Shown: positions 43,265-63,807 of the stretch, piece by piece
How the letters are laid out: each line of letters opens with the position of its first letter
Numbering within the stretch: position 1 is the stretch's first letter
Origin: Escherichia coli
GTDB lineage: Bacteria > Pseudomonadota > Gammaproteobacteria > Enterobacterales > Enterobacteriaceae
Reading direction: 5' to 3' (one strand)
NCBI RefSeq assembly: GCF_045037415.1
Contig: NZ_CP173438.1
DNA length: 64,000 nucleotides
Notes under the pieces: model-generated
The model's database searches: none
The model's input: only the letters and a program-made list of their open reading frames with translations
What the model was told of the DNA's origin: nothing
Position numbers and translations under genes: made by a program

Positions 43265-43870
43265 GGACAGAAACTGTCTACCGGAATGTGGTCACTCCAC
43301 TTGAGTCGTCTTGCTGTACTCCTTTGGCCAATCCATTTAGCTCTCCAACGTGATGTTTTCAACGGTAACAAAAGTAACAATATAACATGCAGTCATTTCA
43401 ACGATCTCAGTGTTACCACCCATTTTGAGCAATCATATCAAAGTAACAAAAGGGGAATATTGTGTGGTTCATCGCTGAAAGCAGGCTAAGATCACCTGCC
43501 GGCTATGCATATCATGAAAGTGCTAAATGTCCCGTCTTGTTTATCAACCGAGATAAGCTGTAATTGACTGAGTGGCTCCCCTTAATGCTTTTTCTCAATC
43601 AACAGATATGGATGGGACCAGTCAGTGACCTCTTTATATGAAAAAAACCCATCGTGCTCCAGTGCGCAAACGCCCTTATGACTGGCAACGTAATCGTAAA
43701 CAGCCCGGCTTTCCAGTCCCTGTAACATGTGCGAAAGCAGCTTTCGGCGCATCACATCTGACTTCCTGCGTTTACTGTCAACAACGGGTAATAAAGTGAT
43801 CCACTAACCGTCACCACCAACGGTTTAATATTGATCCACCTTGTTTACTCAGGATTAGCTTCAGGTATAA

Positions 43871-45019: not shown

Positions 45020-46415
45020 TTACGCCGCACCGTCCTTTTTAACTTCTCGCCAGATTCGCCATGCCATAAACGCCAGAACGGCAACGCCAAGTATTAACGC
45101 CCCCCACACCAGCAGCGTTTTCCACTGACTTTGTTGTTCGGCTGCCGACGTCGCCGTTAGTCGCAATTCACCGCCGAGAGTTACGCTCTCCTGCGGTATA
45201 GCCCACGGCAGATTATCTATCTCCTGCGTTTTACGCAGCGACGCAGGGATCAACATATCGAGTCCAACATCGGCCTTTTTCGCCGCCCGGTTTCCCCACG
45301 CCAGCATGTAAGGACCTTTGCCTTGCGTGTTAAAAACCAGTTGATAACTGTCGCGCGCACCGCTCAATGCTGGCAATGCCTCCGGCAATCGCGCATTAAT
45401 TGTACGTATTCGAACAGCCTCAACTAACTGGCCAGGAAGACGAATATCTTCTGAACGCTTCCCGTCCAGGCGATACAACACCGTTTTTGTCAGTGACTGC
45501 CAGGGTTCTTTTTCGCCGCTGCGCCAGACCAGTTCCACCGGTAAAACGCCTTCATTTTCCAGATCGATCCGCAACGATGTCAGGGGCTGCGGCTGTGTCC
45601 ATCGCCAGACGGCTTCATCATCCGACACCTTATCCGCCCGAGCGCCAATCACAATACGTTCGGACTCCGGCTCATTACTGTCAGCAATAGCGCTCACGCT
45701 GTTTAACGTCAGTGCCGGGCTTTGCGAGTTGAGGATCACCAGCAGGTAGCGATTTCCTTCAAGTGACAATGTCAGGTTGGTGCTGATGGCGTCCATTTTC
45801 AGACGATCGCTATCCCGCGTCAGATCCATTAACGGCGCATCTTCCTGCACGGGTCGCCAGTAGCGTAAATCACGGCTGACATAAACCGAGGCTTTCCCCT
45901 GCCAGTTGCCCGTCGGCGTCCCCCAGTTCAGACGCAATTGCGTCAGTGAAAGAGAGTCTTTCCTCTCTTCCGGCAACGTCAGTAAATAGCTCTGCCCGAG
46001 CGCAGTGACATCATCGCTTTGCAAATGAATTTCAATACCGTTTTTTGAACGTAAAACAACAGCATCCCCACTACGTTGACCCTCATCACGCGGCGGAACC
46101 GGCGACATATCAAGCGGGAAAAGACGCAGAGCCACTGTCTCTGGCGTAACGGTCTGGGTTTTCTGCGCCACCAGCGCAAACGGCACCATATCCCCCAGAT
46201 GGTTAAAAACCCGCACATCGCGCAAATCCGGCCATGCAGTGCTCTGATACACCACCTGCGGCAGCGAAATGCGATACCAGGGCGAATGCCCCCGTGGTTT
46301 CCAGCGCGACGCCTGTTGCGTAGTCCGTTGGCGCTTCCTTCACTTCATCGCTGCTGACCGCCGCGCCCGCAGTACTCAGTAGCACGCTGCATAACACCGC
46401 TTTCATCCATTTCAT
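45020..46415 (-). pseudogene. secreted/membrane-anchored protein (DUF3999-like partner of the upstream membrane protein), frameshifted in a G5 run
   Basis: Signal-peptide start MKWMKAVLCSVLLSTAGAA at 46415 overlaps the upstream stop (ATGA); the frame shifts near a G5 run (about 46286-46297) into the 411-aa ORF 45020..46255, which ends with a C-terminal TM helix. Confidence 0.55.
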
Positions 46416-56482: not shown

Positions 56483-56905
56483 TTAGCTTTCCCAGAGAAC
56501 GGTAATGGTGTAGATGTTCATGCCGTGATACTGAATAAAGTTGGATTGCCAGAGTTCAAACAGCTCCCTTCCGGCGTTAACAGGCAGGTCACCAACATAA
56601 GCAAGAAAGACATATTGCTGACTCCAGCTGATATCAATTTCCTTTTCAAGTTCGGGGTATACCGTCCCCATATAACTGAAGTCGGTAATGTAATCAAAAT
56701 ACCATTCATCATTGCGTGAAATAATCCGTATTTCGACAGGATGGTAACCACCCTTTTCAGCGCTGTAACTCAGGTCTTTAAATAACAGACTGACGGCTGT
56801 AATTTTGGCTTTATGCGGCGGTGGATTTCCCGCTTCATTTAATATGATATTTATTAATTCCTGATCGACGGGCATAGCTAGCCCTTCCTGATGGACAATA
56901 TTCAT
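56483..56905 (-). CDS. hypothetical protein
   Basis: 140-aa ORF immediately upstream of the C39-like peptidase gene, same strand; no recognisable motif. Confidence 0.45.
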   Translation of the reverse strand: MNIVHQEGLAMPVDQELINIILNEAGNPPPHKAKITAVSLLFKDLSYSAEKGGYHPVEIRIISRNDEWYFDYITDFSYMGTVYPELEKEIDISWSQQYVFLAYVGDLPVNAGRELFELWQSNFIQYHGMNIYTITVLWES

Positions 56906-57229
56906 CAGTGATTTTCCTGTTCAATATATTCTGATAAGACGTTATGTCTGCACCAGCACAGGTGGGGTTTAATCACCTAATAAATGGTAAGTGCATGACA
57001 ACGTACTGACTGGGTAAAATATAGTTCACCAGCAATATTATTATATCAAAAATATACTTTTTATGCAAATAGTAACAAAGAGAAACTAATATGTGGTTCA
57101 GCAATGAAATAACTGGCAATAGGTTTTTATTCATTATTAAGTGATGGCATACTTTCCATTCTGCCATGTCAGACAGGTCAGGATTCCGGGGTGGTTCCTT
57201 CTGTCTGGCATGGCGGAAAACTGACGCTA

Positions 57230-57739
57230 TCACACCTTCCCGTTCAGCTTTTCAAAGAGGCGCTTACGCTCATCTTCGGGCAGCTTCATGATTTGTACCG
57301 CCAGTTCAGAAACATTGGGCACCTGAGACATCAGATCGTCCTTTACCAGCCTGAGGGCCTGCTCCATCAGTTGCGCCCGCGAAGCTGGCGACATATTGCG
57401 ATACAGCTGCACCCAGAGGCTTAGCTGGCGATCACTGTCGTTGAGAGTAAACGCTTCGCCCTTAGCCCTGTTTCTCTCATCATCAAGCGACATTGTGGCT
57501 GCGCTAATATGGTAAACCACACCTTTCCCGGCAGTCCTTTTACGACGTATTTCCGGGTGCAGGGATGCCAGCTTTTCCAAGCGCATCCTGGCGCCACGCG
57601 CAGTGCCCGGCATCCCCTCAATATGAGTGAATTCCTCTGCTGTCAGCCAGTCTTTAGCCTCTTCAACAGAAGCTTCAGGATGAGTAGGTATAGCCGAAAC
57701 TGTTCTCTTACTGCTCATATAAATTTCACCAGATATCAA
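57230..57739 (-). CDS. phage Mu c-repressor-like DNA-binding protein
   Basis: 169-aa ORF with EGMPGTARGARMRL and C-terminal LPEDERKRLFEKLNG, resembling Mu repressor c (AADGMPGSVAGV...LPEEKRKEILSKYG from memory); divergent from a Ner-like gene as in Mu. Confidence 0.6.
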   Translation of the reverse strand: MISGEIYMSSKRTVSAIPTHPEASVEEAKDWLTAEEFTHIEGMPGTARGARMRLEKLASLHPEIRRKRTAGKGVVYHISAATMSLDDERNRAKGEAFTLNDSDRQLSLWVQLYRNMSPASRAQLMEQALRLVKDDLMSQVPNVSELAVQIMKLPEDERKRLFEKLNGKV

Positions 57740-57839
57740 TGCGTTAATATGAAAACCAATAAATAGATACCAAAAGAACTTGAAAGGTATCTTTTATTCG
57801 CATTTAATATCCATGTACTGATTCCATGGAGTTAATACT

Positions 57840-58109
57840 GTGCGTAACTCAACAGCATCGCAGAAAAAGCAAATCAAAGGAAGTTCAGGGAACTGGCATC
57901 GTGCCGATATTGTGGCAGCACTTCACAAGCGAGGGTTAACGCTGGCGTTACTGTCACGCAGTCACGGCCTTGCGCCACGGACATTAAATAACGCCTTAGA
58001 GCGTCATTATCCCAGAGCTGAGCGCATTATTGCCGGGGCTCTGGATACGACACCGGAAACATTATGGCCGGAAAGGTATGCCCTTAAAAATGGACCTAAT
58101 AGCAGGTAA
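57840..58109 (+). CDS. Ner/Nlp-family DNA-binding regulator
   Basis: 89-aa ORF with WHRADIVAALHKRGLTLALLSRSHGLAPRTLNNALERHYPRAERIIAGALDTTPETLWPERY, near-collinear with phage Mu Ner (WHRADVIAGLKKRKLSLSALSRQFGYAPTTLANALERHWPKGEQIIANALETKPEVIWPSRY from memory). Confidence 0.85.
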   Translation: MRNSTASQKKQIKGSSGNWHRADIVAALHKRGLTLALLSRSHGLAPRTLNNALERHYPRAERIIAGALDTTPETLWPERYALKNGPNSR

Positions 58110-58120
58110 AGGATGCAACC

Positions 58121-58648
58121 ATGGCAACCACCATCACTGAAATAACGGAATGCTTTGAGTATTTTTTCAGTTCTCTTTATCGCAGGGAGTTCGTCAAAAC
58201 CCTGCGTCTGAACGAATGTAGCGAGCGGGAATTACTGCCTCTGGTACGTTGCTATTTGCTGGGTTGGTTTGCAGATAACGTCTCACCGGAAGTAAAAAGC
58301 AAACTGCCAGGAACTGTATCCGGGCACGGTTACATTGATTTTGTCATTGACGATGTGGCCGTTGAGTTTGCAGTACGTAAACCAACTGCGGCACGTTCCA
58401 ATGTCTCTGCGACCGTCAACAGTACAGAAGTAAAGAAATTGATGAAACATGACGGCAAAGCCTTGCTTGTGCTGTTTGATTTCTCTGACACACCCTATTC
58501 AGAAGAACAGATTGAATCCTTCCGCAACTGGCCCTCTCTTGGTCGAGGGAATCATCGCAAGTCTGCATTCAACGTCGTTTATTTCTTTGTGGAAAAACGC
58601 AGACCGCTGGCACTGGGGAAAATCACCAAAAACATCCGTATCACTTAA
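58121..58648 (+). CDS. hypothetical protein (possible PD-(D/E)xK-like fold)
   Basis: 175-aa ORF immediately after the ner-like gene; GYIDFVIDDVAVEFAVRK is weakly nuclease-like; assignment is speculative. Confidence 0.4.
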   Translation: MATTITEITECFEYFFSSLYRREFVKTLRLNECSERELLPLVRCYLLGWFADNVSPEVKSKLPGTVSGHGYIDFVIDDVAVEFAVRKPTAARSNVSATVNSTEVKKLMKHDGKALLVLFDFSDTPYSEEQIESFRNWPSLGRGNHRKSAFNVVYFFVEKRRPLALGKITKNIRIT

Positions 58649-58662
58649 CAGGGAATTAATTA

Positions 58663-59022
58663 ATGAACAGAAAACTGTTGGCCTTATTCATGGCAGCCAT
58701 AACGCTACCAGTCGCAGCAGCGCAGTACGTAAAACCCGGAGCGGTTCTAACCCTGCATCCGGGACAGAATAACGCTGAATTCAACATTAATGCCTCAACG
58801 GGGGATGGTTCGGGCGTATGCAATATGGAGGGGACAGCACAGCAAATAGCTGCCGGAGAAAGTCAGAAGCGTCGCTGGGTCTGGAATGACAATGCCAGCG
58901 AGTGTGTTGCAGTAATTAGTGAACTGACAAACGGTAAGGCCAGCATTATGACACGTGGTTGCGAGGGATACTGCGGGGCTTCTGCGGCAGGCGCAATGGA
59001 TGGTCTATTTAATAAGAAATAA
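58663..59022 (+). CDS. hypothetical secreted Cys-containing protein
   Basis: 119-aa ORF with signal peptide MNRKLLALFMAAITLPVAAAQ and four Cys. Confidence 0.5.
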   Translation: MNRKLLALFMAAITLPVAAAQYVKPGAVLTLHPGQNNAEFNINASTGDGSGVCNMEGTAQQIAAGESQKRRWVWNDNASECVAVISELTNGKASIMTRGCEGYCGASAAGAMDGLFNKK

Positions 59023-59052
59023 AAGTATCATTAATTTACGAAGGAACTACAG

Positions 59053-59388
59053 ATGAAAAGAGCAATACTTCTGGTATTAATTGCTGCTGGTTTGCTGGCT
59101 GGCTGCGGCGAGAAAACGCCAAAATGTAGTAGTGATGATGCAAAAAATCTGGTCGGGGATATTGCAAGAAAGACAATCGAGAAAGGGATGAAACTGGATA
59201 AGGATGTGCGTATTTCTGTAGAAAATGTCAGAACAATTAGCCATGAATCAGATCTGGATGTTTATCAGTGCGCTGCTGATTTAACGTTTACAAAACCAGA
59301 TTTGCAAAATTCTCTACCAATCACCTACCGGATTCAGAAAACTGATGAGGGTAAAGGTCCGTTTTATATAAACGTAACAGGTTTATAA
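59053..59388 (+). CDS. hypothetical lipoprotein
   Basis: 111-aa ORF with lipobox MKRAILLVLIAAGLLAGCGEK. Confidence 0.55.
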   Translation: MKRAILLVLIAAGLLAGCGEKTPKCSSDDAKNLVGDIARKTIEKGMKLDKDVRISVENVRTISHESDLDVYQCAADLTFTKPDLQNSLPITYRIQKTDEGKGPFYINVTGL

Positions 59389-59454
59389 TCACTGAATAAC
59401 ATCCGGGTTCCTTTTGGGTGAAATAATTCATGTTTTATTCCAAAAGGAAACCCT

Positions 59455-60267: not shown

Positions 60268-62154
60268 TTACTTCATTAAAATAGCACTATTTTTTGAGGG
60301 CAGCGGGATAAGGGCTCTGCGCTCTCCATCCATTGCATGTTCACCCGCAAACCATTCGTAATGAACTTTATTCATGATTGATACCGGCGGTTCTTTATTC
60401 TCTATAACTATGATTTGTAAGGTATCAGGCAATTGGGTCAGTGAATGCCAGAAGCCTTCCTCAATACCAGCCGATATGGGTTCATCGAAGCCCGATACCG
60501 TAGCAGCGGCTTTCTTCTTATAACTTGTCAGCGGTGAATCAATCACGACTAGCCCAGGATGCGGGTATCCTTTTTTAATACAATATTTTAGTAATCCAAT
60601 GATGAAAGCTGAATAAAGAATGGCACGAACACCTTTACCGTGAGACTGCCGAGGTTGTCCATCAACAATGATGTCATACTCTTTTTCATTAAATGAAACG
60701 TCAGGCTCGGCACCCCATTTCCAGTCTTTTAAAACAGTTTCAATTTCTCTACAAAGTTCGGCCAGCGTACGGGTAGATAATCCCTCCCATTCGAGCCGTG
60801 GTTGACTGCTCTTTTCCAGCAGTATTTCTATATCCTTTTGATGTTTTAGTAACTCAAACCATCTCTGTCGATCATTCAACTCAGAGTCTCTTTCAGCTCG
60901 CTGCTCAATAGCTAAATCTAGGCTTTCTTTGGAAAGTGTAAGAAGAGGCTCAAAAGTATATTTGATCTGGTTCTTCATTCCATCCAAGCTTTCTTTTGAC
61001 TTATATCTGTCTATATTCAGAGCTTCTTTTCTTCGGTCAAGATCACTCATCGCTTTTTGCAGGCCTGCAAGGTATCCATGAATTTTTGCAGCTTCAGCTA
61101 AAGAAGAACGTCGGACTTCATTACTGTTCATTAATTTTTTAGCGTTCTCACTGTGTGGATGTAGTAAATTTTGTCCACAAAGGGAACAAGGAACTTCCTG
61201 AAGTGAAGTGAAATAGTGAGAACCTTCGGAAATAAAATCCAACCGCTTCAGGTCGGAATGGTAACGTTCTTCTAATAGGCTATATCTCGATTGAATTTCA
61301 GATACTCCCATTAACTGAGATTCTATTTTTAACGTTAACGCTGTCTCCATTTTTATTCCCTCGAGCAAGTCAGAAATAGCGGCTGCAGCCCTCTCAACTT
61401 CATCAATTGCTTGTGCAATCAATTGATCTGATAAATCATCTGCTGAGCTCGTTAATGGAAACTTGGGCGAACAAATTGAGAAACGTTCATCAAGTGGTCG
61501 AATCAAATCCTGGATGAATTCAAGCTTCGCCATCAACCTCGCTTTTACAATTTCAGGCTTTTCCTCTACGGTAACACCACCATCATCGTGCCCGGTAAGG
61601 ATGTATGAAAACATGCGTTTTCGAGCAGTGTCGTCATAACCGGAACGTCCCGTTACTGGCGAGTATTCGTCGATAATGGATACTTCATCTACCAAAAATA
61701 TAGGAGCGAGCGTTCGAATCGAGAAACGTTGCGTTTCGCCACGAGCATTCTTGCGAAGCTTCGCCTCTTTGATCCCCGCAAAAGGGAAAAGTATGGACGT
61801 CACATCTGGCCCCTTACTCGTTCCTTTACGCACAGGAGCAATTATTTTACCTTCTCCATGGATGTCTTGAATAGCGACATCATGTGCCTCTAATTTCCCC
61901 CCCTCAAGACCGCGCTTGAGCGTTAACACCCCCCCTTCATCATTTTCGAATTCAACATAAAGATGGGTGTAATCGGTGGCCTCTTTAAGCTTTTTTTTGA
62001 GTTTTTCGGCACCAAGAATGTAGTCAAGACAACTCACAAGGTAACTTTTCCCAGTATCAGATTCCCCTGCTAGAATATTCGCACCCTTATAGAAATCAAC
62101 ATAAGCGTCTTGAACGCTGTTTCCGCGCAATAGTATTTTTCTTATACGAAGCAT
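60268..62154 (-). CDS. Rad50/SMC-like ABC ATPase with coiled coil and central CxxC hook (LmuB/DdmC-like)
   Basis: ORF 60268..62175; start set at the ATG at 62154 (MLRIRKILLRG); N-terminal Walker A GESDTGKSYL, long helical middle with CSLCGQ near the midpoint, C-terminal Walker B/D-loop (GLVVIDSPLTSY); start lies 1 nt after the upstream gene's stop. Confidence 0.75.
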   Translation of the reverse strand: MLRIRKILLRGNSVQDAYVDFYKGANILAGESDTGKSYLVSCLDYILGAEKLKKKLKEATDYTHLYVEFENDEGGVLTLKRGLEGGKLEAHDVAIQDIHGEGKIIAPVRKGTSKGPDVTSILFPFAGIKEAKLRKNARGETQRFSIRTLAPIFLVDEVSIIDEYSPVTGRSGYDDTARKRMFSYILTGHDDGGVTVEEKPEIVKARLMAKLEFIQDLIRPLDERFSICSPKFPLTSSADDLSDQLIAQAIDEVERAAAAISDLLEGIKMETALTLKIESQLMGVSEIQSRYSLLEERYHSDLKRLDFISEGSHYFTSLQEVPCSLCGQNLLHPHSENAKKLMNSNEVRRSSLAEAAKIHGYLAGLQKAMSDLDRRKEALNIDRYKSKESLDGMKNQIKYTFEPLLTLSKESLDLAIEQRAERDSELNDRQRWFELLKHQKDIEILLEKSSQPRLEWEGLSTRTLAELCREIETVLKDWKWGAEPDVSFNEKEYDIIVDGQPRQSHGKGVRAILYSAFIIGLLKYCIKKGYPHPGLVVIDSPLTSYKKKAAATVSGFDEPISAGIEEGFWHSLTQLPDTLQIIVIENKEPPVSIMNKVHYEWFAGEHAMDGERRALIPLPSKNSAILMK

Positions 62155-62155
62155 G

Positions 62156-62671
62156 TTATAAATCCAGTAGATCAATTGCGGTCAATCGGTCGAATTCAGA
62201 ACCCCATTGCCCCACATTCTGAGATATATATGAAGCAAGTTCTTCATCCGTATATTCATAGAATTGCTTTGTGACCCAAGAGGCACGTTCTGCGAGCTCT
62301 TTTGAATACTGTGACATCAAAAGCCGCACAAACCTTCCTGTTAAATTGGTAGCCTGATACAAAATACCTTCGGCAGCAAAGACAACCTTAATCAATTCTC
62401 TTGATAGCATTAAATGCAGCCCTGCCTGAATTGCGCTTCGCTTAACAAGAAGCTCTGCTCCCCGGTGAGGAACTGCTGGATGAAGGCTTTTAGGCCCCCT
62501 AGGTACGTCACTGGTATGCACAAGAAGATAGTCATACGAAACTATCCTTTGTAGGTCCATTGCTACATTGTCCGCTGCATCCAATATGAACAGAGCACGA
62601 AATCCATACTCCAGCGGAGTGTTAAAAGGTCTCTGCTCAAAGTTTCCTTCAAATACTTGCATTTCGCTCAT
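62156..62671 (-). CDS. small middle-component protein (LmuC/DdmB-like)
   Basis: ORF 62156..62683 opens with a non-ATG codon; the ATG at 62671 (MSEMQVFEG) overlaps the upstream stop as ATGA; about 171 aa, no recognisable catalytic motif. Confidence 0.6.
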   Translation of the reverse strand: MSEMQVFEGNFEQRPFNTPLEYGFRALFILDAADNVAMDLQRIVSYDYLLVHTSDVPRGPKSLHPAVPHRGAELLVKRSAIQAGLHLMLSRELIKVVFAAEGILYQATNLTGRFVRLLMSQYSKELAERASWVTKQFYEYTDEELASYISQNVGQWGSEFDRLTAIDLLDL

Positions 62672-63807
62672 GGATTGCACCAATTAATCAAGTTTGTATT
62701 GGCTAGTTGGTGGCATATACCTTCACGATCCTTATTCGTTACGTGAATGGCAAGTGGGTGCGCACCAAGTTGCAGGGTCTGAGCGGCCTTGACGGTATTT
62801 TTTAACCGAAGGAGTGGAGTCCCTGTCAGGTCAGAGGTGTAGTGATACAGACCATCATCAAACTCTACAAGTAAAGAATTAAAGAATTCTTGATTCGCCA
62901 TTTGGTCCCTAGCGAGTTCCTTTAGCCCTTCCGAGCAATAAAAAGTTATTCGGGACCGTTCAAAGAGTTTTACATGGCTGATACTTGATTGAAAATCAAC
63001 TAAATCTCGCACGTTGGTTTTGATATCAGCGCTGATAACTGAAAAGAGTTGTTCAATATATACAGTTTCAATGGGAGCCACAGATGATGGGGGCCTAGTT
63101 GGTGGATCCCGCTCAATTAATGGTGCGCCAAAGACCATAAGATGAAAAGAGGTTTTACTGTGTTCGGCAAGTATCTCAATAGGCTGTTTTGCATGAAAAA
63201 TACTAAAATCAAACTCTTTAATATATTTTTCAAGTTCAGGCGTCAGGTCAACACTATGTTTCGATGTAATTTGCTTTGAAAAAGTTGCCCACTCGGATAG
63301 CATTTTCTCTTTGAGTTTAGTTGGATCATCTAGGAGGTCTTGGAATGGCGATGTTACCCCTTTATGTGTAACAAAATGGTATTGTGTAGGTACTGTGTAG
63401 TCCTTGATGAAAGTATAATAGATAACTTTTGCAACTTCGATGCCTGCCTTAGGAAGGCCTAAATTCGCATCATAATGTTTGCATTGATATAAGTGCCATC
63501 TTCGAGGAACAGCATCAGATGGATCAAGCCATACAACAATATCTCTGCCTTTATCTCCTGCCCCGCCACGTTGTTGTACTTCGTTGACATATTGCTGACC
63601 AGCTAAGTATTCAGAGGCCCATTCGAGTGTAAACCTTTCAAATTCGGCGGCGCTAAACTGTGCCAGACGATCCAAGGGGGCTATTGGAAGCCCTACACCT
63701 AACCCAAGCAGCCGAGCGTTCGCACCCGGCCACGTTGTAGGAGCAGAAAGCGCGCCAAGCGTCGAACTTGAATTTTGTTTCATCTTCTCTACCACCACAA
63801 CCTCCAT
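62668..63807 (-). CDS. putative effector with N-terminal PD-(D/E)xK-like (Cap4/DUF4297-like) nuclease motif (LmuA/DdmA-like)
   Basis: 379-aa ORF; GDKGRDIVVWLDPSD...WHLYQCKHY fits a D...(E/Q)xK nuclease core; first gene of a 3-gene coupled operon; alternative start at the ATG at 63783. Confidence 0.6.
   Translation of the reverse strand: MEVVVVEKMKQNSSSTLGALSAPTTWPGANARLLGLGVGLPIAPLDRLAQFSAAEFERFTLEWASEYLAGQQYVNEVQQRGGAGDKGRDIVVWLDPSDAVPRRWHLYQCKHYDANLGLPKAGIEVAKVIYYTFIKDYTVPTQYHFVTHKGVTSPFQDLLDDPTKLKEKMLSEWATFSKQITSKHSVDLTPELEKYIKEFDFSIFHAKQPIEILAEHSKTSFHLMVFGAPLIERDPPTRPPSSVAPIETVYIEQLFSVISADIKTNVRDLVDFQSSISHVKLFERSRITFYCSEGLKELARDQMANQEFFNSLLVEFDDGLYHYTSDLTGTPLLRLKNTVKAAQTLQLGAHPLAIHVTNKDREGICHQLANTNLINWCNP

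What the first reader, a model, noticed from the sequence alone, without database searches (positions are those of the whole stretch)
57230..58109. Phage Mu c/ner-like divergent switch with no Mu transposase
Seen in sequence: a minus-strand gene for a Mu repressor-c-like protein and a plus-strand gene for a protein near-collinear with Mu Ner face each other across a 100-bp gap (57740-57839). Established knowledge: in Mu this divergent pair is the lysis/lysogeny switch and is followed by transposase genes A and B. Here the ner side instead leads into a 175-aa unknown protein, three small secreted or lipoproteins and then the ABC-ATPase cassette; the c side leads into the 140-aa / C39-like peptidase / RadC-like / recombinase genes. 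Inference: a Mu-type bistable switch has been co-opted to control island excision and accessory cargo, possibly including the defence cassette.
Basis: partly seen in the sequence, partly recalled or inferred. Interest (0 to 1): 0.6.

Follow-up and report, generated by a model that had tools for sequence, protein, structure and literature searches.

The report
Mu-type c/Ner switch on island
A regulatory cassette clearly related to the repressor/Ner control region of phage Mu sits, with no transposase, inside a conserved and so far undescribed family of Enterobacterales genomic islands, where it heads an operon for a small nuclease-like protein and exported proteins, not the recombinase or the defence genes.

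Summary
A minus-strand gene is a remote, near full-length homologue of Mu repressor c. It most likely starts at ATG 57718 (162 aa), not 57739. It faces a plus-strand Ner homologue (62% identical to Mu Ner). The region between them is collinear with Mu's: an IHF-consensus site next to c, then a conserved promoter-like TTGAAA-N17-TTTAAT bracketed by a dyad, then a second dyad over the ner ribosome-binding site.

No MuA or MuB occurs in the window, in the complete island (ychF to dhaR), or within 10 kb in 24 related loci. All of those loci keep the same divergent pair in the same backbone.

- c-like ends in a strong hairpin and looks monocistronic.
- The recombinase and AlpA lie behind other promoter regions.
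- The ABC cassette is on the opposite strand, and cargo varies between loci.

The constant output is ner, then p175 (restriction-endonuclease-like fold, dN/dS near 0), then exported proteins. In 86 E. coli genomes the whole c/ner cassette is replaced, exactly between the DUF2787 and p175 start codons, by a single XRE repressor. It therefore behaves as an exchangeable immunity cassette. I rate it a new variant of a known kind, of moderate interest. What the induced operon does is unknown.

The parts
57230..57718 (-). c-like gene (162 aa from ATG 57718; the TTG at 57739 is unlikely to be the start). Remote, near full-length homologue of Mu repressor c, with an N-terminal Mu-type winged HTH and a helical C-terminal part.
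   Evidence: hhalign against the Repc family: probability 94.7%, E 5.6e-8. phrog_310 and phrog_7148 hits. tblastn to MuA N-termini. BLASTP to a Salmonella Mu-like repressor. dN/dS 0.05-0.11. Conserved start.
57140..57235 (-). Stable hairpin immediately 3' of the c-like stop (inverted-repeat arms 57159-57176 and 57201-57218). Probable terminator or 3' stabiliser, which would make c-like monocistronic.
   Evidence: Inverted repeat of 18 nt, 89% complementary. RNA fold -39.8 kcal/mol, z -6.1. Kept with compensatory changes in L012-L015. No Rfam family.
57734..57746 (+). IHF-consensus site TATCAATGCGTTA (WATCAANNNNTTR), 16 nt upstream of the c-like start.
   Evidence: One of only 2 matches in 64 kb. 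A perfect match in 13 of 15 distinct related loci and a one-base mismatch in 2. Mu has TATCAACGCGTTA at the same place and orientation.
57765..57792 (.). Dyad AGATACC-N14-GGTATCT bracketing the -35 hexamer. Candidate operator.
   Evidence: Unique in the window, with 0 expected from shuffles. A dyad at the same place but with a different sequence occurs in most other subfamilies (clear arms of 7-10 pairs in 10 of the 13 anchored loci, weak or absent in L018, L021 and L023).
57780..57808 (+). Putative ner promoter: -35 TTGAAA (57780-85), 17-nt spacer, -10 TTTAAT (57803-08).
   Evidence: Read from the sequence. Both hexamers and the 73-75 bp distance from the IHF site are conserved in 13 loci. 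It aligns with Mu Pe. The strict consensus scanner did not report it. No transcription start data.
57810..57830 (+). Dyad or hairpin TCCATG-N9-CATGGA covering part of the ner Shine-Dalgarno sequence (GGAG 57828-31). Candidate Ner operator or 5'-UTR hairpin.
   Evidence: Arms change in a compensating way between loci: CATG/CATG, CCGG/CCGG, CAGG/CCTG, CACTG/CAGTG. Fold energies are weak and not better than shuffles. The loop carries GTACTAAGT in some loci, resembling the CTAAGT of the Mu Ner site region.
57840..58109 (+). ner-like gene (89 aa, GTG start, conserved 17-aa N-terminal extension).
   Evidence: Pfam HTH_35, E 1.8e-26. 62% identity to Mu Ner. Present and divergent from c-like in all 24 related loci. 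dN/dS 0.07-0.13.
58121..58648 (+). p175, first gene after ner (11-nt gap). Small protein with a PD-(D/E)xK restriction-endonuclease-like fold. The most conserved gene of the module.
58663..59388 (+). p119 (signal peptide) and p111 (lipoprotein signal), the distal genes of the ner operon.
   Evidence: Translations. Conserved in the long-form subfamily. In the mutS-side islands, non-homologous proteins that also carry signal peptides replace them.
56907..58121 (.). The exchangeable regulatory cassette: promoter region of the DUF2787 operon, hairpin, c-like, control region and ner.
   Evidence: Homology with E. coli 1428 (L033) stops exactly at the DUF2787 start (56906) and resumes at the p175 start (58122). 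L033 has a single XRE/HTH_3 repressor there, while every other backbone protein is 88-99% identical.
57040..57069 (-). Promoter-like site TTTGCA-N18-(TG)TATAAT upstream of DUF2787-p179-RadC-recombinase.
   Evidence: Consensus scan, 10 of 12 matches with an extended -10. Not tested experimentally.
54472..56905 (-). Backbone genes on the c side: DUF2787 (56483-56905), p179 (55902-56441), RadC (55448-55918) and an Xer-like tyrosine recombinase (54472-55416).
   Evidence: NCBIfam and PHROG hits. Conserved synteny in 20 or more loci. The DNA block 54479-59420 is shared at 92% with other genera.

Best explanation
This is a Mu-derived early-control cassette (c, IHF site, early promoter, Ner site, ner). 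It has become the exchangeable immunity/regulatory cassette of a conserved, non-transposing integrative island backbone of Enterobacterales.

Proposed working, by analogy with Mu:
- The c-like protein is made from its own monocistronic gene. Helped by an IHF-induced bend next to its gene, it binds operator DNA over the ner promoter and keeps the rightward operon off.
- When c-like is lost or inactivated, the operon ner-p175-exported proteins is transcribed.
- Ner, as the first product, then binds the dyad at the transcript start. This limits its own operon and shuts c synthesis, giving two alternative states.

The regulated output is therefore a small nuclease-fold protein plus envelope proteins. 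It is not a transposase, not the recombinase or AlpA, and not the neighbouring defence cassette.

Shown here: homology of both proteins, collinearity of the control region with Mu, conservation, purifying selection, absence of A and B, and cassette exchange.

Inferred only: who binds which dyad, bistability, the inducing signal, and what p175 and the exported proteins do.
For: - Ner is 62% identical to Mu Ner, with Pfam HTH_35 E 1.8e-26.
- c-like is homologous to Repc over nearly its full length: hhalign 94.7%, E 5.6e-8. Supporting hits.
- A real Mu-like prophage shows c<>ner-A-B as a positive control.
- The control region is collinear with Mu's. It has an IHF-consensus site at the same position and orientation, one of 2 in 64 kb. 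The site sits 33 bp from the -35 hexamer here against 35 bp in Mu. The geometry is fixed at 73-75 bp in 13 loci.
- A unique dyad lies over the -35 and spacer, and subfamily-specific dyads sit at the same place.
- The pair is divergent and adjacent in all 24 related loci from about 12 genera, always in the same backbone.
- dN/dS is 0.05-0.13 for both regulators and about 0 for p175.
- No MuA or MuB anywhere, and the island is bounded by core genes ychF and dhaR.
- The cassette is swapped cleanly for an XRE repressor in 86 E. coli genomes, with breakpoints at the DUF2787 and p175 start codons.
- c-like is followed by a strong conserved hairpin.
- Precedent for a Ner-like repressor as the first gene of the operon it represses on a non-Mu element: Acr1 of IncA/C plasmids (PMC4207636).
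Against: - There are no expression, binding or transcription-start data.
- The strict sigma-70 scan found no promoter in the gap. The promoter for c-like was not located.
- c-like has no Pfam PF02316 hit and no PDB sequence hit. Its AF2 model is mediocre (pLDDT 69) and recovered only generic winged-helix regulators at non-significant scores.
- The c-like DNA-binding region is almost invariant across subfamilies, while the dyads over the promoter differ. The dyads may therefore belong to Ner or to something else.
- The ner 5' hairpin is not more stable than shuffled sequence.
- Distant p175 homologues occur without Ner, so the Ner-p175 link is specific to this island family.
Confidence: 0.6

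Rival explanations
1. Controller-protein logic. Ner-like acts like the C protein of an R-M system, or like an antitoxin-type autoregulator. It is co-transcribed with a potentially toxic restriction-endonuclease-like protein (p175) and sets its dose. c-like is an extra safety repressor. The unit would then be an addiction or abortive-infection module, not a life-cycle switch.
For: - The p175 fold matches BamHI, BglII, BstYI and OkrAI. From my own knowledge, BamHI and BglII are C-protein-controlled systems.
- ner and p175 are 11 nt apart in one operon.
- p175 is under extreme purifying selection.
- In the swapped version an XRE repressor sits directly upstream of p175.
- A distant homologue travels as a two-gene insert.
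Against: - There is no methyltransferase next to p175 in any locus.
- There are no PADLOC hits.
- The control region as a whole is Mu-like, including a second regulator and an IHF site. C-protein systems do not have these.
- Nuclease activity and toxicity are untested.
Confidence: 0.15
2. One reading: the switch governs island excision or transfer and the accessory and defence cargo.
For: - The cassette lies between the two backbone operons.
- The swapped segment includes the promoter region of the DUF2787-RadC-recombinase operon, so the regulators could also act leftward.
- A 13-mer in that promoter's spacer resembles the ner-promoter half-site (2 mismatches).
Against: - A hairpin and a separate promoter-like site lie after c-like.
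- The dyad is unique in the window.
- The half-site resemblance is not seen in other subfamilies.
- AlpA has its own divergent control region.
- The ABC cassette is on the opposite strand, and cargo differs between loci.
Confidence: 0.1
3. Immunity decoy. The island keeps Mu-type regulators to repress the early promoter of incoming Mu-like transposable phages, giving superinfection immunity as a defence function. Its own operon is a side issue.
For: - Ner is 62% identical to Mu Ner.
- Some subfamilies carry a CTAAGT motif like the one in the Mu Ner-site region.
- The island carries defence cargo.
Against: - c-like is only about 20-27% identical to Repc.
- The Mu CTTTTYAGTA operator repeats are not reproduced here.
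- The tight conservation of the cassette's own promoter geometry and of the ner-p175 operon argues for a cis function.
Confidence: 0.08
4. Decaying remnant of a Mu-like prophage that happens to lie in the island.
For: Homology to Mu c/ner, and no other Mu genes.
Against: - Both ORFs are intact, with dN/dS 0.05-0.13.
- The neighbours are identical in 24 loci across genera.
- No Mu left-end sequence follows c.
- No A/B fragments are present.
- The control-region geometry is conserved.
Confidence: 0.02

Closest known systems
Phage Mu early control region (repressor c / Repc, IHF site, Pe, Ner site, ner)
   Same: - Divergent c and ner genes.
- Ner is 62% identical to Mu Ner.
- c is homologous to Repc over nearly its full length at profile level.
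- An IHF-consensus site sits at the same position and orientation next to c.
- The spacing from that site to the early-promoter -35 is similar.
- ner is the first gene of the rightward operon.

   Different: - No transposase A, no B, and no Mu ends.
- ner is followed by a nuclease-fold protein and exported proteins.
- The gap is 121 bp, against 170 bp in Mu.
- Mu's CTTTTYAGTA operator repeats are not reproduced.
- c-like fails Pfam PF02316.
- The host element is an integrase-type island.
Acr1, the Ner-like repressor of IncA/C conjugative plasmids (PMC4207636)
   Same: - A Ner-family protein on a non-Mu mobile element.
- It is the first gene of the operon whose promoter it represses.
   Different: - Acr1 works with an H-NS-like Acr2, not with a Mu-type c repressor.
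- Its operon encodes the AcaCD activator of conjugation.
- No c-like partner or IHF/Mu-like layout has been described for it.
C-protein-controlled type II restriction-modification systems (BamHI and BglII type; from my own knowledge)
   Same: A small HTH regulator is transcribed just ahead of a restriction-endonuclease-fold gene. p175's best structural matches are BamHI-family enzymes.
   Different: - There is no methyltransferase.
- The regulator belongs to the Ner family, not the C-protein (XRE) family.
- A second, divergent repressor is present.
Gammaproteobacterial pipolins and 'piPolB-less pipolin-like islands' (PMC11551731)
   Same: - An island backbone with a DUF2787 gene, a P4/SXT-type integrase, and a second small tyrosine recombinase near an AlpA-type excisionase.
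- A conserved core with exchangeable defence cargo.

   Different: - No piPolB gene in the island.
- No WYL gene was detected.
- The paper does not mention Ner or Mu-type regulators.
- Relatedness of the backbone proteins to pipolin proteins was not tested here.
CI/Cro-type immunity modules of lambdoid phages and ICEs, and their mosaic exchange (from my own knowledge)
   Same: A divergent repressor pair at the junction of two operons. In sister islands the whole cassette is replaced by an unrelated XRE repressor, with sharp breakpoints.
   Different: The protein families differ (Mu-type winged HTH and Ner). An IHF site is involved. No SOS-type autocleavage domain is present in c-like.

Membership tests
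Ner family (Pfam PF13693 HTH_35; Mu Ner, SfsB/Nlp) | Significant match to the family profile and to Mu Ner | tested here: met
   Pfam E 1.8e-26. 62% identity to Mu Ner over 63 aa. NCBIfam SfsB model, E 1.5e-19, below its equivalog cut-off.
Mu-type repressor (Repc; N-terminal HTH Mu-type domain, Pfam PF02316) | Match to the PF02316 domain profile | tested here: not met
   No Pfam hit even at E <= 10. All true Repc relatives carry PF02316.
Mu-type repressor (Repc; N-terminal HTH Mu-type domain, Pfam PF02316) | Homology to Repc detectable by profile-profile comparison and by hits to MuA N-termini | tested here: met
   hhalign 94.7%, E 5.6e-8, 127 columns. phrog_310, E 1e-7. tblastn 42-44% to Mu-type transposase N-termini. 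BLASTP to a Salmonella Mu-like repressor, E 4e-5.
Mu-type repressor (Repc; N-terminal HTH Mu-type domain, Pfam PF02316) | Winged-helix fold of the DNA-binding domain matching solved MuR or MuA I-alpha structures | tested here: inconclusive
Mu-type lysis/lysogeny switch | Divergent c and ner with operators over the early promoter and an IHF site between c and that promoter | tested here: met
   The divergent pair is present in 24 of 24 loci. The IHF consensus lies at the Mu-equivalent place. Dyads lie over the -35 and spacer. Protein binding itself is not testable here.
Mu-type lysis/lysogeny switch | Mutual repression and bistability; repressor inactivation as the trigger | not testable with these tools
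   Needs reporter fusions, EMSA and single-cell expression.
Mu-like transposable prophage | DDE transposase A and ATPase B downstream of ner; Mu ends | tested here: not met
   tblastn with MuA and MuB finds nothing in the window, in the complete island L001, or in 24 loci. There is no similarity to the Mu left end after c. The island is bounded by ychF and dhaR.
C-protein-controlled R-M system | Cognate methyltransferase next to the endonuclease gene | tested here: not met
   No methyltransferase is adjacent to p175 in the window, L001, L003-L011 or L033.
Pipolin | Primer-independent PolB gene (hallmark) | tested here: not met
   No polymerase is annotated in the island of L001. The only ORF of about 900 aa inside the island part of the window (46412-49111) corresponds to the gene RefSeq annotates as DUF2339. 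Homology of the backbone proteins to pipolin core proteins was not tested.
Known anti-phage defence systems (PADLOC) | Profile match of c-like, Ner-like, p175 or neighbouring proteins | tested here: not met
   0 families for all ten backbone proteins.

The most novel reading that the evidence does not exclude
The backbone is an undescribed family of inducible integrative elements (satellite-like or abortive-infection islands), present in about 12% of complete E. coli genomes. Its exchangeable immunity cassette, here of Mu type, senses a phage or stress signal by loss of the c-like repressor. It then fires a nuclease plus envelope-protein operon that kills or hijacks the invader or the cell. 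This would be a phage-style lysis/lysogeny switch rewired as the trigger of a defence or parasitic programme.
Probability: 0.15. Interest if true: 0.75.

Novelty: new variant of a known kind. Interest (0 to 1): 0.5.

Why it matters
- It shows that the Mu early-control module (repressor, IHF site, early promoter, Ner) can work as a portable cassette detached from transposition. Sister islands swap it for an unrelated XRE repressor.
- It marks the regulatory centre of a conserved island backbone found in 635 of 5426 complete E. coli genomes and in many other Enterobacterales. That backbone carries varied defence cargo, and I found no description of it in the searched literature.
- It points to a very strongly conserved, uncharacterised nuclease-fold protein (p175) as the main regulated product. 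This gives a concrete, cheap experimental entry: delete c-like, then watch p175 expression, growth, phage sensitivity and excision.

Tried and rejected
- Pfam, NCBIfam and PADLOC on c-like gave nothing.
- A PDB sequence profile search with the c-like family gave nothing meaningful.
- I considered an RNA hairpin sequestering the ner Shine-Dalgarno sequence. The arms covary, but the energies are no better than shuffles and alternative folds compete, so this is left open.
- I searched for att direct repeats at the island ends and found none convincing.
- I looked for Mu left-end remnants after c and found none.
- I looked for a shared operator half-site in the promoter of the DUF2787 operon. The window has one suggestive match, but other subfamilies are at background level.
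- The motif ATYAAWGCG as a repeated operator is not enriched.
- The c-like family is absent from IMG/VR viral contigs.
- Rfam gave nothing for the hairpin.
- Literature searches for Ner or Mu-repressor genes on islands, for the RefSeq accessions and for DUF2787 returned only the pipolin paper and the IncA/C Acr1 work.
- The contexts of distant p175 homologues were mostly short contigs and not informative.
Full report
**Where the window comes from.** The region is 100% identical to chromosomal DNA of hundreds of E. coli genomes. In a complete genome (L001) it lies in an island between the core genes ychF and dhaR. The island holds, in order:
- a P4-type integrase next to ychF;
- IS debris and DUF2339/DUF3999 genes;
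- a block of hypothetical genes, an AlpA-type regulator, an Xer-like tyrosine recombinase, RadC and DUF2787;
- the two genes of the finding, followed by three hypothetical genes;
- an 'ABC-three component system' on the opposite strand and an Ec67-type retron reverse transcriptase.

**The observation.** Both ORFs are present.

The plus-strand 89-aa protein is a clear Ner-family member:
- Pfam HTH_35, E 1.8e-26;
- phrog_769, E 1e-29;
- 62% identity to Mu Ner over 63 residues.

For the minus-strand protein, single-sequence evidence is weak:
- no Pfam hit;
- 27% identity over 51 residues to Mu Repc;
- nothing in a PDB sequence search.

Family-level evidence is good:
- An alignment of 18 family members compared with an alignment of 12 Repc relatives (all carrying PF02316) gives hhalign probability 94.7%, E 5.6e-8. 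It covers 127 columns, spanning residues 16-152 of the island protein and 8-174 of Repc.
- Residues 27-98 hit the PHROG of MuA-type transposases, E 1e-7.
- Residues 24-84 are 42-44% identical to the N-termini of plasmid Mu-type transposases.
- The protein aligns over 157 residues with the repressor of a genuine Salmonella Mu-like prophage. The gene order there is c<>ner-A-B-kil...gam.
- UniRef labels several homologues 'HTH Mu-type domain-containing'.

So 'Mu c-like' is right, as a remote homologue. The conserved start is ATG 57718 (162 aa), not the TTG at 57739, so the gap is 121 bp.

**The control region is itself Mu-like.** Reading from c towards ner:
- An exact IHF-consensus site, TATCAATGCGTTA, lies at 57734-57746. 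The window holds only two matches to WATCAANNNNTTR. Mu has TATCAACGCGTTA at the same distance from the c start and in the same orientation.
- That Mu has an IHF site in its operator region affecting Pe is stated in PMC3820752. That this sequence is that site is my inference from the consensus and from recalled literature.
- 33 bp further on is TTGAAA-N17-TTTAAT (57780-57808). It aligns with Mu Pe (TTTACA-N17-TATCTT, 35 bp from the IHF site).
- A perfect 7-bp dyad, AGATACC-N14-GGTATCT (57765-57792), brackets the -35. It is unique in the window, with none expected by chance.
- A second dyad, TCCATG-N9-CATGGA (57810-57830), covers the presumed transcript start and part of the ner ribosome-binding site.

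Across 13 distinct related loci the distance from the IHF site to the -10 is 73-75 bp, and both hexamers are conserved. The dyad over the -35 keeps its place in most subfamilies (clear arms of 7-10 pairs in 10 of the 13 loci) but changes sequence between them. The arms of the second dyad change in a compensating way.

I could not decide whether that second element is a Ner operator or an RNA hairpin. Fold energies are no better than shuffles. In some subfamilies the loop carries GTACTAAGT, like the CTAAGT of the Mu Ner-site region.

One caveat applies to operator assignment. The c-like DNA-binding region is almost invariant while the promoter dyads vary, so assigning operators to proteins needs experiments.

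**No transposase, and not a prophage end.** tblastn with MuA and MuB finds nothing in the window, in the complete island, or within 10 kb of the pair in 24 related loci. No Mu left-end sequence follows c. The c-like family does not occur in IMG/VR viral contigs.

**Comparative picture.** The c-like family comprises 139 proteins, all from Enterobacterales. There is a long form (about 162 aa) and a more common short form (126 aa) that lacks the last helices. I examined 24 loci: nine from exact-protein look-ups and fifteen from a scan of species-representative genomes, among them Mangrovibacter, Citrobacter, Cedecea, Serratia, Pectobacterium, Klebsiella, Buttiauxella, Hafnia, Sodalis and Lelliottia.

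- In every locus the Ner gene is divergent from and adjacent to c-like.
- The neighbours are the same: exported proteins, p175 and Ner on one side; c-like, DUF2787/p179/RadC (order varies), the Xer-like recombinase, AlpA and p284/p465 relatives on the other.
- The 5-kb block 54479-59420 is shared at 92% DNA identity with other genera.
- dN/dS against two relatives is 0.05-0.13 for c-like and Ner and 0-0.009 for p175. These are working genes.
- In E. coli, 635 of 5426 complete genomes carry some version.

**An exchangeable cassette.** In 86 of those E. coli genomes only p175 matches. In one of them (L033) all backbone proteins are 88-99% identical to the window's, but c-like and Ner are missing. 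DNA homology stops exactly at the DUF2787 start codon (56906) and resumes at the p175 start codon (58122). In between, L033 has a single 124-aa XRE/HTH_3 repressor (RstR/DicA-like), divergent from p175. This is the mosaic behaviour of a phage immunity region. It shows that the cassette's job is to control the flanking backbone operons, p175 first of all.

**What is and is not under its control.**
- c-like is followed at once by an 18-nt-armed hairpin (-39.8 kcal/mol, z -6.1). The hairpin is conserved with compensating changes.
- A good promoter-like site then precedes DUF2787. c-like therefore looks monocistronic, as in Mu.
- The recombinase is the last gene of that separate leftward unit.
- AlpA and the genes after it start from another divergent region shared with p208 (53649-53858).
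- The ABC cassette is on the minus strand, convergent with the ner operon.
- The cargo beside the module differs from locus to locus: type I R-M, an Avs4-like protein, LysR plus hydrolase.

**The output operon.** ner is followed 11 nt later by p175.
- p175 has no hit in Pfam, NCBIfam, PHROGs or PADLOC.
- It has about 108 representative relatives.
- Its AlphaFold model is very confident (pLDDT 96.8).
- Conserved acidic residues and a lysine (E35, E57, D73, E82, E103, K106, D120) fit an active site. Activity is inferred, not shown.

After p175 come a signal-peptide protein and a lipoprotein. In the mutS-side islands these are replaced by non-homologous proteins that also carry signal peptides. 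No methyltransferase is nearby. Distant p175 homologues occur without Ner, one as a two-gene insert between sdhA and sdhB.

**Most likely mechanism (confidence about 0.6).** This is a Mu-type two-repressor switch.
- c-like, with IHF, holds the rightward promoter off.
- On loss of c-like, ner-p175-exported proteins are expressed.
- Ner then feeds back on its own promoter and on c.

The trigger and the biological role of the induced operon are unknown.

**Comparison with what is known.**
- The nearest relative is the Mu control region itself. The element fails membership of 'Mu-like prophage' because it has no A, no B and no ends.
- A Ner-like repressor on a non-Mu element is already known: Acr1 of IncA/C plasmids (PMC4207636).
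- The backbone shares DUF2787, two tyrosine recombinases and an excisionase with gammaproteobacterial pipolins. The pipolin paper mentions piPolB-less pipolin-like islands (PMC11551731). There is no piPolB here, and I did not test protein-level relatedness.
- I found no paper describing a Mu c/Ner pair on such islands.

**Verdict.** I rate it a new variant of a known kind, with interest 0.5.

Noticed in passing
window 58121-58648: p175 is an unannotated protein with a confidently predicted BamHI-like PD-(D/E)xK fold and near-zero dN/dS. It is more conserved than any other gene of the island backbone, and no methyltransferase lies nearby.
   Followed up: partly
L033 8206-9000 (E. coli 1428) versus window 56907-58121: In 86 E. 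coli genomes the whole c/ner cassette is replaced by a single XRE/HTH_3 repressor, with breakpoints exactly at the DUF2787 and p175 start codons. There the cargo beside the module is a 1727-aa Avs4-like protein.
   Followed up: yes
window 57140-57235 (minus strand): A very stable hairpin (-39.8 kcal/mol, z -6.1) lies right after the c-like stop codon. It has no U-tract and no Rfam match, and is conserved with compensatory changes in related genera.
   Followed up: partly
window 43582-43775: An orphan 3' fragment of a different allele of the p465-type gene, 87-94% identical to the gene end in L008-L010, L013 and L014. It lies 6.3 kb from the intact p465 gene, which suggests that the DUF2339/DUF3999 cargo entered by recombination at that gene end.
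   Followed up: partly
L003-L011 (mutS-side islands) versus window: The same backbone module lies in the opposite orientation relative to the P4-type integrase in islands next to mutS compared with the ychF island. The mutS versions also carry CbtA/CbeA toxin-antitoxin genes on the c side.
   Followed up: no
L027-L029 (uncultured bacterium, sdh operon): A distant p175 homologue, together with a 121-aa gene that has a weak Cas2-like hit, is inserted between sdhA and sdhB. This looks like a small selfish two-gene insert.
   Followed up: no
window 53649-53858: A second divergent control region lies between p208 (+) and AlpA-p171-p284-p465 (-). All except AlpA have no family assignment, and they may be the excision or replication module of the element.
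   Followed up: no
It is probably not a gene.
   Followed up: partly
window 57049-57061 (minus strand): AAAAGTATATTTT, in the spacer of the promoter-like site upstream of DUF2787, resembles the half-site AAAGGTATCTTTT in the ner promoter spacer. No equivalent was found in other subfamilies.
   Followed up: partly
window 60268-63807 and beyond the window end: A three-gene 'ABC-three component system' lies on the minus strand. In complete genomes an Ec67-type retron reverse transcriptase follows just outside the window. This is defence cargo at the dhaR end of the island.
   Followed up: no
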